Of a DNA stretch of 64,000 bases, positions 27,001-33,000 are shown piece after piece (the stretch's first letter is position 1; every line of letters begins with the position of its first letter). The stretch is from the IMG/VR virus record IMGVR_UViG_3300046047_000272; one strand, written 5' to 3'. Origin of the DNA: a virus. Lineage: Duplodnaviria > Heunggongvirae > Uroviricota > Caudoviricetes. The position numbers were made by a program.

Positions 27001-30000
27001 ACGCATGATAAGCAGAATCGTCGGCGTGATAAGGCGAATAGGATATCATATTTACGAGAGAAGTCCAGACTTAATGAGCATCAGTTGATCTTTCCTCATG
27101 AATTAACGTTGATGGTTAGATCGAATGTGATTACAAAGCATGATTTTGACGCTCCGAATTGTTGGCCTAGCGTTAAGCCATTGCAAGATGGTGGAACTGA
27201 CACCTGTATTCTCTGGCATGATGATAACAATACATACATTAAAGCGACGACATTCTATGGTGGGCAGGACATCATCAAGGATCATTATGTCATTGATATG
27301 ATAGCCAATGAAGTGTCATCTAGTCTTGATGATCCGTTCTCTATCATCCCATCAGAGTGAGATATGTAAGGTATAATGACGATTATGAGTACAATAGACA
27401 CTATTCTATCAGAGGGTGGGCTCATGATCGTCGAGTCCCCCACTAAGGCCCGTGAGATATCGGGTTTCCTTGGATCGAAATGGCGTATTATGGCCACCAA
27501 GGGTTTTATGTTCGAGTTAAAGGATCCTAAGAAGCTCTCAGCTAAGGAGAAAGCTATTTATGGATCGTATGCTATTGATGTGCATAGCGGCCAGTACGAT
27601 CGTCTACTCGATCATGACGCGTCAAATAAGGCTCAATGGCAAGAGATTAAGAAGGCTGTTGACAGTGGACGATGGAAGCACTTCTATGTGAGCACGGATC
27701 CAGATGAAGCCGGTGAGCTCATCGGATTAGAGGTCGTACGATCATTGCAGACACAATTAGATCGAGAGGGCATGGATGTCCGTAGAGCATCGTGGCATGA
27801 GATCACTAAGAAAGCCGTGTTGCAGGGATTAGAGCATCATACCACCATTGATGAGTTAAAGGCAGAGTCCTTTGAGGCGCGTCAGATCTATGATAGGTTA
27901 TTTGGTTTCAGTGTGAGTCCCTATCTTTGGAAGACGGTTCGTAGTGGTACATCTGGTGGACGAGCACAAAGCCCTGCTTTACGTCTAGTCGTAGAACGAG
28001 AAAAAGAGCGCATGGCCTTCGTCAGGAGCCCATATGGATCGATATCTGCTGTCTTCAACGAGGGTGAGGACAATGAGTTATCAGCGAATCTTATTTCATG
28101 GAATGATCAACGTGTTGCTGTCGGATCGGATTTCGACGCTCATGGAAATCTGGTGAAAAAGGATCGTATGGTCATTGGACCCGATGATGCTAAGACCATT
28201 ATCGCGGCCTTAAAGAAAAAGACGTATCGTATCACGGATATTAAGGATACACCATATACGAGGAAGCCTCCAATGCCGTACACAACGTCCTCATATCAGC
28301 AGAATGTAGGATCAATTCTTGGATTATCATCTAGCAAAGCGATGAGTATTGCTCAGAAACTCTTCGAGCATACGTATCAGACATACTCGAGAACTGATAG
28401 CCCAGCAATGGCTGATGAAGCTATTCAGGCTGCTCGTGCAACGATTGCCAAGGATTATCATAACGATATGCCATCGAATCCTATTGTATATAAGTCAAAG
28501 TCTAAGAATGCGCAAGAAGGCCATGAATGCATCAGGCCAGTAGTTGATGAACATACTGGATTATTCTATGACCCTAAGAAGATTGCATCGTTAACTAGAA
28601 GCAAGGAATTTGACGATAAAACATCGAGTGTCTATGACTTAGTGTACAGGAGATCAATAGCTAGTCAGATGAATGCAGCGAAAGGCGTCACGCGAAGAAT
28701 GACCATTACGTCTGATGACGGGAGGGCTGTATTCTCAACATCAAGTACGCGTATTGATGTTCCTGGATTCATGTCTGTGTACCGAGATAAGGAGGAAGCA
28801 TGAAGAAGACGACCACATCTAATGGATTCGATTACGATTATCAGATAGGTGAGGACATGGATTTGTCCAAGGCTCATGCAGATGAGCATGAAACGGCGCC
28901 TCCTCCGAGATTTACTGAGCCTCAGCTTGTAGCGAAGATGGAGGAACTCGGCATTGGTCGACCATCGACGTATGCTAATCTGGTAACGGTGAATCAGAAA
29001 CGAGGATACGTACAGAAGAAAGGTAAGGCCATGGCCCCTACCTGGAGTGGGATGAAGGTCGCGCAAATTCTAGAAGCGAAGATTCCAGAATTCGTTGATT
29101 ATCAATTCACGGCTAATATGGAGTCAGATTTAGACGCTATAGGATCTGGTCAATTACCAAGAAATCAATTCCTTGATGATACGTGGAAGGGTGCATCTGG
29201 TGTTGATGATCGAGTCAATGGATTAATGAAGAGTATTGATTGGGATGAGATCAATGATTTGAGTGTCATCCATCTTCAAGGTGGATATGATGTGAAGGTG
29301 TCTAAGAATGGCGCATATCTTATGGATCCATCAGGTGAGAAGGATGAACATGGATATGTGAAAAGCGTTCGTCTTGATGACGATATACTTCTAGACGAGG
29401 ATGGTCTAACGCCTGAGCGATGCGCTGAATTGCTTGCTCATCGTAAAGAGTCAGTAGAACGAGTTCTAGGTACGGTTCCTGAGGGAGATTATGCGGGTTG
29501 GAAGATGATCGCTCGTGATGGTCGATATGGTGCCTATGTGCAATTACTGAAAGTCAATAAGAAGACTGGCGACCCTGTAAAGAGCGCTAAACCGAAGAAT
29601 GTGACTATTCCTGAGAATCTCCAGGCTGATGAGACAACGATTACATATGATCAGGCTATGACGTTGATTGATAATATGCCACGTCAACTTGGTGAGGGAT
29701 TCTTTACTGGTGTTGGTAAGAGGGGCGCATGGTTGGGATGGAAGAAGACATCAAAGGGTAGAGCGTCGTTCACACCATTACCTGAAGGATATCAACAGAA
29801 AACACTGACATTAGATGAAGCTAAGACTATCTGGGAGAAGAAACCAGCTCAGAACAAGAGGCCATTTACTAAGAAACGATCTAAGTAACTCTACTAAAGT
29901 GTTTTCAACATCCATCAGTTCTATATTAGATCTAGTTAGGCTCAGAACATGAATCTTTACTCATGTTCTGAGCCTATTCTGACTGGTGCTGAGCATAAAA

Positions 30001-33000
30001 GCCCTCAGATGATACGTTATACTAGATGATACCAGAATCGGGATTAGACGCGAGATCTATTATTCTTATTTATCCTATGAATATCAGATGGGGTCAACAG
30101 TATCATACTGTTGACCCCATCTGTAAACGGTATATATTATTCCCAGTTTGATCCTAATACCTCATGTGATCCAGTAAAATCTATAGGACGACGTTCATCA
30201 AGATTGTCAACATCATCGGCTTCATTGATAGTTCGTTCGAACGATCTTCTCGTTTCTGGTGACATGTTATCCTCGTCAACGCCAATCTCAAAATCTGGCA
30301 TTTGATCTGATAGTCGTTGCAAGACAAGTAGGGCTTCTCCAACGGCAACATCTTCTGACGCCTTCGTCGTTCCATTGAGAATACGAAGGAAGAAATCACC
30401 ATTCGTATCGAAGAAGGTTCCATCTGAAAGCGTGAATGCTGCTCTTCCAAATTCTTGATTAATCATGCAATGATAGGTGTGATCGTCAATCTGGACGGTG
30501 ATGGTATTAGTTGTATCCATGAGATGAGGATATCTTAGATCGTCTCAATCGGACTGGTATCATTGATGGTCGTCGTATCCTTAAATAGCGTCATCGTTAG
30601 TTTTACGGTGCCAAGGTAGGAATGAGCAAGCGTCCATAGCTAAGGATAGTACGGTAAATACTGGTAGAGCATAGAAGAGAATGGATACTCCTGATACGAT
30701 GGCTGATAATACAACGGAGTATTCTATTGGTGGCTGAGCATAGACGTCCTTAATCATGAACCCTGTAGCAGCGACAAGCATCGCATTGCCAAGGATGGAC
30801 CAGAATCCGCACCATAGGTTTCCGCGATCATTAGAAAATGCTATGCCCTGAAAAGTCCATGCACCGAACACTGGGATGATAATCATGATGGTAATGACGG
30901 TTAGTGGTATATCAGCCATTGAATGAACATGTGGTAGTACAAAGATTAATAATGCACAGATTGAAGCTAATCCAAGTATCAGGAACCATTTTGTCACATG
31001 ATCCTCAACATGATGATGCTCACTCCTTCTCGATACAGCCAAGTTAAAAGACCATTTTGCGGGGATAAAGAGCGCAGCTAGAAATAAGAACATAACCATA
31101 AGTATCATATTGTTTTCTCCTCTTCCTTAATTTGAGGTAATTAGCAATGATCATGGTGAATACGATATTGAGTATGATTTGCCCGTACACCTATACGATA
31201 TCAATGGCACCAGGAGCATCGCATGTATAAATGGCCGGGAACCATCAATACTATGATTAGGTGGTTCCCGGCCATTATGGTTGATGTGATTACTTCTCAG
31301 ATTTTGCATCATCAGTATTCGGTGATGCCTCAACCTCGTCGTGTGAATGATCGGTGCCAGCGATCTTCCTGAGTGATGCTGACAGGTCCACGCCAGTAAG
31401 CGTATTGACTAATGTCGGCAGCTTAGCCGCAAGATTCGTCACTAGACTCGATGTCTGATCATTCGCATCGGTACCAACACTCGTGATCTTCGCGCCCTCT
31501 AATGGCTTGCTGATAGCAGAAGCCAGTTCTGGAAGCTTCTCGATAATCAGTGATTGCAACGCAGCCTGTCCATATCGCTTGTAAGCATCAGCCTTCTTCG
31601 TCATGGCCTCAGCCTCAGCAAGACCCTGAGCCTTAATTGAGGAGGCCTTAGCGTCACCCTCAATCTTAACGGCATCAGCTTGAGCCTGTGCCCTCAATCG
31701 AGTAGCCTCAGCCTCAGCAGTAGCTGTCTGCTTGGTGACCTCAGCCTGAGCCTCGGCATCGATCTTCCTCTTATACTTGTCAGCGTCAGCCTTCGTATTC
31801 ACTTCATACTCTAACTTGACTCTCTGCAACTTAACATTCTCAGCCTCAGCAAGAGCCTCGGCCTCAGCGATCTTCTTATTCTGAGCCTGCTGTTCAAGAC
31901 TCTTAGCGGCATCGGCCGAGACCTCGGCCTTATTCGTTTCAGCTCGAATAGCGGCCTGTTGTAGGGACAACGCCTTCTGACTTGACGCGACTTCCTGGTC
32001 AGCGCTAATCTGAGCCTGCTGAGCTTTCTGCTTAGCGTTAGCATTAGCTATGGCCGCCTCTCGCTTGACGGCAGCCTCCTGAGGAGTACCTAGAGCTTCG
32101 ATGTAGCCATTCTGATCAGTGATTTCCTGAATCTGCAGAGTATCAAGTATTAATCCTTGAATATTGATGGAGTCAGCGACTTCTTGACGGAGATTCTCTG
32201 AGAACGCGGCCCTGTCTCCAAGGAGGCTCTCAACAGTCATGGTTCCAACAATGGATCTCATGGATCCCTCAATGATCTCCTTGACATATGGCTCCATTAA
32301 TTGCTCTTGCTTAGCAAATCTCTGAGCAGCCAGTCGAATAGACTCATCGGTGTTGTCAACCTTGAAATTAGTGACCACCTTTAATTGAATCTTAATCTTA
32401 TCCTGAGAAATAGCATCACATTGCGTGCTGATCTGGTGGGATCGGAGCGATATGCTGACGCATCGATTCACGATGGGCAGGACGAATCCACCCTTATTCT
32501 GTAATACGCGAGTAGCCTTATGACCATCAGAATCCTTACTACTCGATCCAGAGATAATGAACGCCTCGTTAATGGTTGGCGTCTTATATCGACTGACGAG
32601 GAACCAGATCAACAATAGGACGATCACAACAATCGCTCCTACGCCAGCTATAGTATTTAGCATTGGTGTCTTCCTTTCTATAATAATTGATGTCATCATG
32701 ACACCATATCATGATATGGCGCATTGTACCATTACAGGAAAAGAAGACGGAGGCATGGAATGCGTCATCGTCTTAATGAAGCTGAGTAAACGTAGGACAT
32801 TGATTCGAAGAGTGTCATATGACCATGATTAAAGACAATGGATCCATTACGCATCCGTCCAGCGGGGTCAACATAGGTTACGCTAACGGTTGTATGAGAT
32901 GGACGATGCATTGATTGAGCTACGATATTGGAAAGATCCATATCAGCTGATGTTTGTAATTGCGTCACATCGTAGTAATCATTGAATGCCGATATAGTTG

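What the first reader, a model, noticed from the sequence alone, without database searches (positions are those of the whole stretch)
29928..30058. Exact 131-bp AGATCT-bounded hairpin element recurring at gene ends (family C)
Three copies are each exactly 131 bp between palindromic AGATCT termini: 14891..15021 (reverse), 29928..30058 and 60271..60401. Each carries a 14-bp perfect stem (ggctcagaacatga...tcatgttctgagcc) and a conserved 3' half (gatgatacgttatactagatga...gattagacacgagatct). All sit immediately after stop codons, two of them between convergent genes. They look like conserved bidirectional terminator or RNA-processing cassettes, or a small mobile element with fixed length.
Basis: seen in the sequence. 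Interest (0 to 1): 0.6.

Follow-up and report, generated by a model that had tools for sequence, protein, structure and literature searches.

The report
Hairpin-bearing intergenic repeat in huge phage
A 131-bp non-coding repeat carrying a terminator-like hairpin sits just after three genes of an uncultivated ~491-kb phage and has a diverged relative in a sister phage. It looks like a small mobile or recombination-prone "terminator cassette", which is uncommon in phages but not unprecedented.

Summary
There are three copies, each exactly 131 bp and bounded by AGATCT. They are 82-88% identical, and their flanks are unrelated. An independent assembly confirms one or both junctions of each copy.

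Each copy has three parts: a 16-18 bp perfect hairpin, a weak U-rich stretch, and a 74-nt tail with conserved blocks. The elements are not coding and match no Rfam family. They contain no sigma-70-type promoter and no supported RNA fold beyond the hairpin.

A model built only from the three copies finds one hit in 154 kb of related-phage DNA. It lies at the orthologous site after the split topoisomerase gene of a sister phage, in the opposite orientation. Its hairpin sequence differs, with 7 of 16 pairs changed on both sides and all still paired. The hairpin-to-end spacing is the same and the right terminus is conserved. That phage also holds a decayed second copy.

The closest relative lacks the element at two of the three orthologous sites. 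Copies within a genome resemble each other far more than copies at orthologous sites do, and they sit where gene order differs between relatives.

Best reading: a non-autonomous, precisely bounded terminator cassette that spreads or is homogenised within huge-phage genomes. It is MITE-, REP- or PeSL-like but meets the criteria of none. The spreading mechanism is inferred, not shown. Interest is moderate.

The parts
14891..15021 (-). Copy C1, 131 bp, AGATCT...AGATCT. It lies 33 nt after the stop of the 274-aa gene (15055-15879, -). Its right end is 2 nt upstream of a TTGACA-17-TATGAT promoter-like site for the next gene.
29928..30058 (+). Copy C2, 131 bp. It lies 39 nt after the stop of the C-terminal topoisomerase I ORF (28800-29888) and 26 nt before a separate unique 19-bp hairpin (30085-30123). 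The convergent gene ends at 30137.
60271..60401 (+). Copy C3, 131 bp. It lies 10 nt after the stop of the HD-domain CCA-enzyme homolog (59274-60260) and 4 nt before the stop of the convergent 291-aa ORF (60406-61281).
14973..15012 (-). Hairpin of C1 (element columns 10-49). It has 18 pairs and a 4-nt loop, -32.1 kcal/mol, and carries the compensatory U-A to C-G change.
29937..29976 (+). Hairpin of C2. It has 16 pairs and an 8-nt loop, -26.5 kcal/mol. It is the exact reverse complement of the C3 hairpin (loop flipped).
   Evidence: (I5)
60280..60319 (+). Hairpin of C3. It has 18 pairs including one G-U, -28.4 kcal/mol, followed by TTCTAATT. It is the only window copy flagged as terminator-like by the consensus scan.
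29998..30058 (+). Conserved tail blocks, shown on C2. Columns 71-99 read AAAGCCCYMAGATGATACGTTATACTAGA and columns 107-131 read AGAATCRGGATTAGACRCGAGATCT. The right terminus TTAGACGCGAGATCT recurs in the sister-phage copy e1.
14218..14346 (+). Possible degenerate fourth copy. It consists of the unique hairpin 14225-14264 plus downstream sequence that runs into the 3' end of the convergent ORF. The match is weak and unresolved.
   Evidence: 21.8 bits, E about 0.02-0.05; no nhmmer hit

Best explanation
Family C is a non-coding, precisely bounded interspersed repeat of a clade of uncultivated huge phages. The hosts are probably Gram-positive, likely actinobacterial. It works as a 'terminator cassette'.

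Each unit has four parts: conserved termini that include AGATCT, a long perfect hairpin 9 nt from the left end, a U-rich stretch, and a 74-nt tail of fixed length.

Most likely the unit is non-autonomous. It is copied or re-inserted, and homogenised, within a genome by a trans-acting enzyme that recognises the conserved termini and the hairpin. This could be a transposase or recombinase, or the phage's recombination machinery. Copies survive at gene 3' ends because the hairpin acts there as a transcription terminator or 3'-end stabiliser for the upstream gene. As dispersed repeats, the copies also serve as breakpoints for gene-order rearrangements.

Shown: the anatomy, the selection for hairpin pairing, homologs in a second phage, presence, absence and inversion at orthologous sites, and greater similarity within a genome than between genomes.

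Inferred: termination activity, the mode of spread, and the enzyme.
For: 1. The unit is sharp and of constant length. Three copies of 131 bp have no indels at 82-88% identity, and their flanks are at random-level identity.

2. The hairpin is under selection for pairing. There is one compensatory change among the window copies. Against sister-phage copy e1, 7 of 16 pairs changed on both sides and 100% of cells stay paired; 0 of 500 shuffles reach this.

3. A model built from the three window copies alone finds exactly one hit in 154 kb of related-phage DNA: e1 at L009:11096-11213, 29.8 bits, E about 2e-4. It lies just after the orthologous topoisomerase C-terminal gene but is inverted. The hairpin-to-right-end distance is 83 nt against 82 nt, and the terminus is TTAGAACGCGAGATCT.

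4. A second, decayed copy e2 lies in the same phage about 15 nt after a stop codon.

5. The closest relative (61%, 52% and 49% amino-acid identity in the three upstream genes) lacks the element after the topoisomerase gene. There the spacer is 50 nt, with TAGATCT at the stop codon. It also lacks it after the CCA gene. More distant relatives have none.

6. C2 is about 85% identical to its paralogs, whereas an HMM built from the three window copies did not detect the e1 copy at the orthologous site at E <= 10. This implies spread or homogenisation within the genome.

7. The copies sit where gene order or content differs between relatives.

8. The hairpin resembles this phage's unique gene-end hairpins. 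The hairpin of e1 is scored terminator-like on both strands, with a U tract on each side; e2 has the same U tract after its stem but was not scored terminator-like.

9. C2 sits next to an independent 19-bp hairpin, so it is redundant as a terminator there. That fits an inserted element.
Against: - The terminal inverted repeat is only 6 bp perfect (8 of 9), below usual MITE criteria.
- No unambiguous target-site duplication exists. AGATCT or TA is possible but not separable from the element.
- No transposase or recombinase is linked to it. The only transposon-type gene in the window, TnpB at 3834-5294, has flanks with no similarity to the element.
- The copies are 12-18% diverged, so there is no sign of recent movement.
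- The relatives are too diverged for a clean filled-versus-empty comparison.
- Variation is block-wise and there are no indels. This points to functional constraint on the tail that a purely selfish element need not have.
- Two of the three window sites have an element-like sequence at the orthologous place in some relative: e1, and GATCTAGT at the end of contig L025. Vertical inheritance with concerted evolution would also give this pattern.
- Only 3 + 2 copies were seen.
- The rest of the 491-kb genome could not be read.
Confidence: 0.45

Rival explanations
1. The element is a fixed cis-regulatory module, not mobile. It combines a terminator hairpin with a tail that binds a phage-encoded protein. 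It was inherited vertically at particular gene ends and is kept similar within a genome because all copies must fit the same factor, or through gene conversion.
For: - Conservation is block-wise, there are no indels, and spacing is conserved at 82 versus 83 nt.
- An element is present at the orthologous topoisomerase site in L009.
- A possible left end, GATCTAGT, occurs after the orthologous 273-aa gene in the closest relative.
- Pairing is kept by covariation.
Against: - It is absent at two orthologous sites in the closest relative.
- It is inverted relative to the topoisomerase gene in L009.
- Copy e2 is decayed.
- It is redundant with a native hairpin at C2.
- The three upstream genes have no common function.
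- No tail motif occurs anywhere else in the window.
Confidence: 0.27
2. The units are site-specific recombination sites or cassette boundaries, comparable to integron attC/VCR sites. Their AGATCT-containing ends would be crossover sites for a recombinase that moves or inverts the flanked gene blocks.
For: - The termini are palindromic and conserved across phage lineages.
- C1 and C2 are inverted repeats flanking the 14.9-kb rII-topoisomerase block, and e2 and e1 are direct repeats flanking the rII block in L009.
- The copies coincide with synteny breakpoints.
- The loop flip shows that DNA-level inversion happens in the hairpin.
Against: - No integrase or recombinase is present in the window.
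- The unit lacks whole-length dyad symmetry, and there are no dense cassette arrays.
- The match to the GTTRRRY core is expected by chance.
- The rearrangement between the window and L009 is not a simple inversion between copies.
Confidence: 0.12
3. The element is a gene for a small structured RNA of about 70-130 nt, or a 3'-UTR RNA element. The AGAUCU ends would pair to close a domain.
For: - The folds are more stable than shuffles, z = -4.6 to -5.8.
- The ends can pair over 8 bp.
- TANNNT-type -10-like hexamers occur on both strands (read directly from the sequence).
Against: - The stability comes from the hairpin alone.
- The proposed helix at columns 50-57/109-116 is broken differently in each copy without compensation.
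- There is no Rfam match even at E <= 10.
- No sigma-70-type promoter lies inside the element.
- The -10-like hexamers are not positionally conserved in e1 or e2.
- The flipped loop argues against loop-specific RNA recognition.
- No complementarity of 14 nt or more to anything else in the window was found.
Confidence: 0.08
4. The copies are an assembly artefact, or the element encodes a 26-aa peptide.
For: Copies C2 and C3 share an ATG...TGA frame of 26 codons.
Against: - An independent assembly carries one or both junctions of each copy.
- In C1 the ATG is ACG and the frame holds a TAA.
- The variable columns show no third-position bias, and the ATG is buried in the stem.
Confidence: 0.02

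Closest known systems
PeSL cassettes (promoter-early stem-loop) of T4-type phages (PMC2839356, PMC4122927)
   Same: Both are short conserved intergenic repeats in large lytic phages. Both contain a stem-loop that acts as a terminator. Both sit at boundaries of variable gene modules and are implicated in recombination-driven shuffling.
   Different: PeSLs are defined by a consensus sigma-70 early promoter plus a stem-loop, and they recombine together with adjacent ORFans. Family C has no sigma-70-type promoter. It also has sharp 131-bp boundaries with palindromic AGATCT termini and an 82-nt region of fixed length from the hairpin to the right end.
Bacterial MITEs such as Neisseria Correia elements (CREE) (PMC2649163, PMC10969869); MITEs reported in 0.2% of viral genomes (PMC11602168)
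   Same: Both are about 100-150 bp, non-coding, dispersed and intergenic, with inverted termini. Their hairpins can terminate transcription or be processed. Both are variably present between relatives.
   Different: MITE criteria are TIRs of at least 10-15 bp plus a 2-10 bp TSD (PMC11602168). Here the TIR is 6 bp (8 of 9) and no demonstrable TSD exists. The big hairpin is internal and asymmetric, not formed by the two ends. No partner transposase is seen. No exact match to the two invariant 20-21-mers was found in 185,579 species-representative bacterial and archaeal genomes.
REP/REPIN elements mobilised by RAYT transposases (own knowledge)
   Same: Both are genome-specific palindromic repeats at gene 3' ends that evolve in concert within a genome and stabilise or terminate transcripts.
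   Different: REPs are about 20-40 nt with a 5' GTAG, occur in hundreds of copies, and have an associated RAYT gene. Family C is 131 bp with a long non-palindromic tail and no GTAG, and no RAYT lies in the window.
Integron attC sites / Vibrio cholerae repeats (own knowledge)
   Same: Both are repeats of about 120-130 bp directly after stop codons. Both are very similar within one genome and different between genomes, with inverted core sites at the two ends.
   Different: attC has dyad symmetry over its whole length, R''/R' cores and extrahelical bases. It occurs in dense arrays next to an integrase. None of these is seen here.
Intrinsic terminators, including U-tract-poor 'I-shaped' terminators described in Actinobacteria (own knowledge)
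   Same: Both are stable hairpins directly after stop codons. Here a U-rich stretch follows on the sense strand, strong in e1 and e2.
   Different: A terminator needs about 40-50 nt. It does not explain the conserved termini, the 74-nt tail or the fixed 131-bp length.

Membership tests
MITE | Small (50-800 bp), non-coding, multiple dispersed copies with sharp ends | tested here: met
   Three copies of 131 bp with random flanks. Not coding.
MITE | Terminal inverted repeats of at least 10-15 bp (PMC11602168) | tested here: not met
   Only AGATCT (6 bp) is perfect, 8 of 9 with the next bases, and nothing beyond.
MITE | Target-site duplication of 2-10 bp | tested here: inconclusive
   The flanks read g/t|AGATCT...AGATCT|a. 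The duplication could be AGATCT or TA, but neither can be separated from the element. The relative's empty site has TAGATCT.
MITE | Filled versus empty sites between genomes | tested here: inconclusive
   The element is absent at two orthologous sites of the closest relative and inverted in L009. However, the relatives share only 49-61% amino-acid identity, so no base-level empty site can be defined.
MITE | Autonomous partner with the same ends | tested here: not met
   The only transposon gene in the window is TnpB (3834-5294). Its flanks do not match the element. The rest of the genome could not be read.
PeSL (T4-type phages) | Consensus sigma-70 early promoter inside the repeat | tested here: not met
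   No promoter-like site lies inside any copy.
PeSL (T4-type phages) | Stable stem-loop acting as a terminator, in an intergenic position | tested here: inconclusive
   Stable hairpins of -26 to -32 kcal/mol lie after stop codons. Terminator activity was not measured. The scan flags C3 and e1 only.
PeSL (T4-type phages) | Located at indel or rearrangement boundaries between related phages | tested here: met
   All three sites differ in gene order or content from relatives.
REP/REPIN | Palindrome of 20-40 nt with 5' GTAG, with a RAYT gene in the genome | tested here: not met
   There is no GTAG at the stem foot (the sequence is TTAG). No Y1-transposase domain occurs in the ORFs scanned. The whole genome was not available.
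Integron attC | Whole-length imperfect dyad symmetry, R''/R' cores, adjacent integrase and cassette array | tested here: not met
   Only columns 1-9/123-131 and 10-49 pair. No integrase is present, and the copies are 15-30 kb apart.
IS200/IS605-derived PATE or TnpB omega-RNA | Subterminal hairpins at both ends, or similarity to the 3' flank of tnpB | tested here: not met
   There is a single hairpin, and no similarity to the tnpB flanks.
Canonical intrinsic terminator | GC-containing hairpin followed by a U tract | tested here: inconclusive
   The hairpin criterion is met. The U tract is weak in the window copies (UAUUCU; only C3 is flagged) and clear in e1 and e2 (e1 flagged by the scan).
Any Rfam family | Covariance-model match | tested here: not met
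   There is no hit at gathering score and none credible at E <= 10.

The most novel reading that the evidence does not exclude
Family C could be a previously undescribed kind of mobile element native to huge phages. It would be a 131-bp non-autonomous unit whose conserved ends (AGATCTAGT... and ...TTAGACGCGAGATCT) and subterminal hairpin are recognised by an unknown phage-encoded recombinase or transposase. It would insert at AGATCT-type sites just after stop codons. Each phage lineage would co-evolve its own hairpin sequence with that enzyme. The copies would drive block rearrangements of core genes such as the rII-topoisomerase region.
Probability: 0.2. Interest if true: 0.65.

Novelty: new variant of a known kind. 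Interest (0 to 1): 0.4.

Why it matters
Transposable and repeat elements are rare in phage genomes. MITEs were reported in 0.2% of viruses (PMC11602168), and the best-studied phage example of repeat-mediated module shuffling is the PeSL of T4-type phages.

A precisely bounded, hairpin-bearing repeat that recurs at gene ends and synteny breakpoints in ~0.4-0.5-Mb phages would give a concrete handle on two questions. The first is how huge phage genomes are transcriptionally punctuated. The second is how their gene order is reshuffled.

If a dedicated enzyme recognises its ends, that would be a new phage-borne mobility system. If not, it is a well-documented example of concerted evolution of terminator cassettes.

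Tried and rejected
- **Known RNA families.** No match at gathering score or at E <= 10.
- **Small peptide.** C2 and C3 share a 26-codon frame, but C1 lacks the ATG and has a stop, and there is no codon-position bias.
- **Structured RNA beyond the hairpin.** The predicted third helix is broken without compensation.
- **Internal sigma-70 promoter.** None inside the element. The TTATACTAG motif is not enriched elsewhere: 12 matches against 11.2 expected.
- **sRNA target complementarity.** Only chance 12-13-mers were found.
- **Link to the TnpB gene, as omega-RNA or PATE.** No similarity to its flanks.
- **Restriction avoidance of AGATCT.** It is not among the avoided palindromes under a Markov expectation.
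- **Integron core-site match (GTTAGGC = GTTRRRY).** This is expected by chance.
- **Searches for the element elsewhere.** Exact 20-21-mers and degenerate patterns gave nothing real in IMG/VR, JGI metagenome contigs or GTDB genomes. GenBank phages also gave nothing real.
- **Protein-anchored metagenome scan with the TelA-like protein.** It found no relative.
- **Extending the window's genome through Logan contigs.** These yielded only contigs that break inside the repeat.
- **Orientation relative to transcription.** This is uninformative for convergent sites. Only C1 and e2 count, and both are sense, 2 of 2, which is not significant.

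
Full report
**1. The observation**

Each is 131 bp and begins and ends with AGATCT.

The invariant left 21-mer and central 20-mer each occur three times in the window, against about zero in shuffles. Pairwise identity is 82.4-87.8% without a single indel. The 40 nt on either side are only 9-15/40 identical, so the repeat has sharp ends.

The perfect stem is 16 bp (TAGGCTCAGAACATGA / TCATGTTCTGAGCCTA), or 18 bp in C1 and C3, at -26 to -32 kcal/mol. C1 carries a compensatory U-A to C-G change in the stem. The 40-nt hairpins of C2 and C3 are exact reverse complements of each other, which means the 8-nt loop is flipped (pair I5).

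The 27 variable columns are clustered (p about 0.002-0.02). They leave conserved blocks at columns 1-22, 37-52, 71-99 and 107-131.

An independent Logan assembly of run SRR16378897 contains element-flank junctions of all three copies. Its contigs break inside the repeat: one 15,033-bp contig runs from C1 to C2. The copies are therefore not an assembly artefact.

**2. Context**

The window is part of a 491,046-bp metagenomic contig. It belongs to a huge phage with no close relative in GenBank phages or IMG/VR.

It encodes:
- rIIA and rIIB, ribonucleotide reductase, gp30.3, a clamp loader and IF3;
- seven tRNAs;
- a topoisomerase I split into two ORFs;
- a TnpB-like protein;
- a sortase with LPXTG pilin-like proteins.

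The nearest cellular homologs of its topoisomerase and CCA enzyme are actinobacterial. The host is therefore probably a Gram-positive bacterium, likely an actinobacterium. This is an inference.

The elements lie 33, 39 and 10 nt after the stop codons of three genes: a 274-aa membrane-type protein, the C-terminal topoisomerase ORF and an HD-domain CCA-enzyme homolog. C2 and C3 are between convergent genes. C1 is between co-directional genes, directly upstream of a TTGACA-17-TATGAT site for the next gene.

The phage also has unique 15-19 bp hairpins without U tracts at other convergent gene ends: 14225-14264, 30085-30123 and 61674-61708. One of them lies only 26 nt from C2.

**3. What it is not**

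- There is no Rfam match, even at E <= 10.
- It is not coding. The 26-codon frame shared by C2 and C3 is broken in C1, and variation shows no codon periodicity.
- Beyond the hairpin and the possible pairing of the two AGAUCU ends, which never varies and so says nothing, the predicted RNA helices are broken without compensation.
- No sigma-70-type promoter lies inside the element.
- Its motifs do not recur elsewhere in the window.
- No complementary target was found.
- The flanks of the TnpB gene are unrelated to it.
- AGATCT is not specially avoided in this genome.

**4. Relatives**

Exact and degenerate DNA searches found nothing real in IMG/VR, JGI metagenome contigs, GTDB genomes or GenBank phages. 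I therefore fetched the orthologous sites of related phages through the flanking proteins.

(a) The closest relative is a phage with a 349,703-bp contig. Its amino-acid identity to the window phage is 61% for the topoisomerase C-terminal ORF, 52% for CCA and 49% for the 274-aa protein. It keeps the arrangement of the topoisomerase gene followed by a convergent homolog. The spacer between them is only 50 nt, with no element, and reads TAGATCT at the stop codon. After its CCA gene a convergent acetyltransferase gene takes the place of C3. After its 273-aa gene the contig breaks 115 nt downstream, at ...GCGCGATCTAGTATGACG. This shares GATCTAGT with the left end of family C and may be the start of that phage's own version. 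That reading is tentative.

(b) A sister phage with a 385,962-bp contig (locus L009, topoisomerase 54% identical) has a 139-nt unit, e1, 16 nt after the topoisomerase stop. It reads AGACCT...AGATCT and lies in the opposite orientation. Its 17-bp hairpin has a different sequence. The hairpin-to-right-end distance is 83 nt, against 82 nt in the window copies. The right terminus is TTAGAACGCGAGATCT, against TTAGACGCGAGATCT.

A covariance model built from the three window copies alone finds e1 as its only hit in 154 kb of related-phage DNA, at 29.8 bits and E about 2e-4. Across the four sequences all 16 stem pairs are kept, and 7 of them have changes on both sides; 0 of 500 shuffles reach this.

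A model that includes e1 finds a second, decayed copy, e2, about 15 nt after another stop codon and upstream of rIIA. Direct alignment confirms it as a homolog of e1.

In e1 and e2 the hairpin is followed by UAUUUU. The e1 hairpin is scored as terminator-like on both strands.

(c) More distant relatives (42-49% identity) and a phage with a 72%-identical HD gene have no element. One of them has unrelated 21-bp hairpins after the topoisomerase gene.

**5. Inference**

Five features need explaining:
- The unit is precisely bounded and of constant length.
- Its termini are the parts conserved between phage lineages, while the hairpin keeps its structure but not its sequence.
- Copies within one genome are much more alike than copies at orthologous sites. 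C2 is about 85% identical to C1 and C3, whereas an HMM built from the three window copies did not detect e1 at E <= 10.
- Occupancy and orientation of orthologous sites vary.
- One copy is decaying.

This is the behaviour of an interspersed repeat that is copied, re-inserted or homogenised within genomes. Independently conserved regulatory sites would not behave this way.

All three window copies coincide with differences in gene order or content relative to relatives. C1 and C2 are inverted repeats flanking the rII-topoisomerase block. In L009, e2 and e1 are direct repeats flanking the rII block, which is inverted relative to the topoisomerase block.

The hairpin's position, stability and U-rich 3' side, and its similarity to the phage's other gene-end hairpins, make a terminator or 3'-end role the most likely activity. 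U-tract-poor terminators are described for Actinobacteria (own knowledge). At C2 the hairpin is redundant with a neighbouring native one, as expected for an inserted cassette.

Three things remain unexplained:
- the 74-nt tail with its conserved blocks and fixed length, which points to a DNA-level partner that I could not identify;
- the mode of spread, since the TIR is only 6 bp and there is no demonstrable TSD or associated enzyme;
- whether AGATCT is the target of insertion.

Orientation relative to transcription is informative only for C1 and e2. Both are in the sense orientation, which is not significant.

**6. Comparison and verdict**

In function the family is closest to the PeSL terminator/promoter cassettes that mediate modular shuffling in T4-type phages (PMC2839356, PMC4122927). 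It also resembles hairpin-forming bacterial MITEs such as Correia elements (PMC2649163) and REP elements.

It fails the defining criteria of each:
- no promoter (PeSL);
- TIR under 10 bp and no clear TSD (MITE, criteria in PMC11602168);
- no GTAG or RAYT (REP);
- no whole-length dyad symmetry or integrase (attC).

I file it as a new variant of a known kind: an interspersed, hairpin-bearing terminator cassette in a clade of huge phages. My confidence in the 'non-autonomous mobile or recombining cassette' reading is about 0.45. The main rival, at about 0.27, is a vertically inherited regulatory module kept uniform by a common binding factor.

The finding is real and moderately interesting. Whole-genome copy surveys, read-level polymorphism and 3'-end mapping would decide between the readings.

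Noticed in passing
window 6963-7080, 8780-9631, 41449-41759, 43013-43527: Two further families of non-coding repeats, each about 110 nt, alternate in these stretches (D1-D4, I3-I7). They flank RNA-repair-type genes: RNA ligase/kinase at 7157-8632, a HAD 'Swiss-army-knife' domain at 5952-6647, kinase/phosphatase at 44103-45365 and HD at 43600-44061. No Rfam match at E <= 0.1.
   Followed up: partly
window 27376-28803 and 28800-29888: Topoisomerase I is split into an N-terminal Toprim ORF and a C-terminal ORF that overlap in ATGA. Related phages also encode two ORFs: overlapping in L007 and L009, but separated by 118-135 nt in L012 and L022.
   Followed up: partly
window 3834-5294: An ORF of 486 aa carries a Cas12f1-like TNB domain, marking it as TnpB-like. 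It lies in the most GC-rich part of the window (51%). No TnpA is nearby.
   Followed up: partly
window 58623-60260: IF3 (58623-59219) is followed by a CCA-enzyme homolog that keeps only the RNA-binding and HD parts (311-328 aa). The closest relative has a full 481-aa enzyme with the nucleotidyltransferase head. A 72%-identical phage homolog is truncated in the same way.
   Followed up: partly
window 281-3451, 39157-41443: The phage encodes a sortase, an LPXTG-anchored Cna-B/SpaA pilin-like protein and a 1056-aa SpaA/SdrD-domain protein. This points to a Gram-positive host.
   Followed up: no
window 61736-63931: A cluster of seven tRNA genes (Pro x2, Asn, Lys x2, His, Leu) has repeated spacers: 94-nt tandem units at 61806-61993 and 44-nt repeats at 62776-62917.
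   Followed up: no
window 14218-14346: The unique hairpin 14225-14264 between the ribonucleotide reductase gene and the convergent M78-like gene, together with the sequence after it, gives a weak match to the family-C model (21.8 bits). It may be an old degenerate copy whose tail now overlaps a coding 3' end.
   Followed up: partly
L025 5560-5600 (closest relative, contig end): The contig ends at ...GGAAAGCGCGATCTAGTATGACGTTACTTC, 115 nt after the ortholog of the gene upstream of C1. CGCG + ATCT + AGT resembles the right end of family C joined to its left end, or the start of that phage's own version of the element.
   Followed up: partly
L012 2833-2887 and 3169-3225: In a 49%-identical relative, two unrelated 21-bp near-perfect hairpins lie in a 610-nt non-coding stretch after the topoisomerase gene. 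Several independent assemblies break about 270-300 nt after that gene.
   Followed up: no
L023 8230-8387: A GC-rich, structured-looking non-coding stretch lies at the contig end of the closest relative. It could be an RNA gene. It was not analysed.
   Followed up: no
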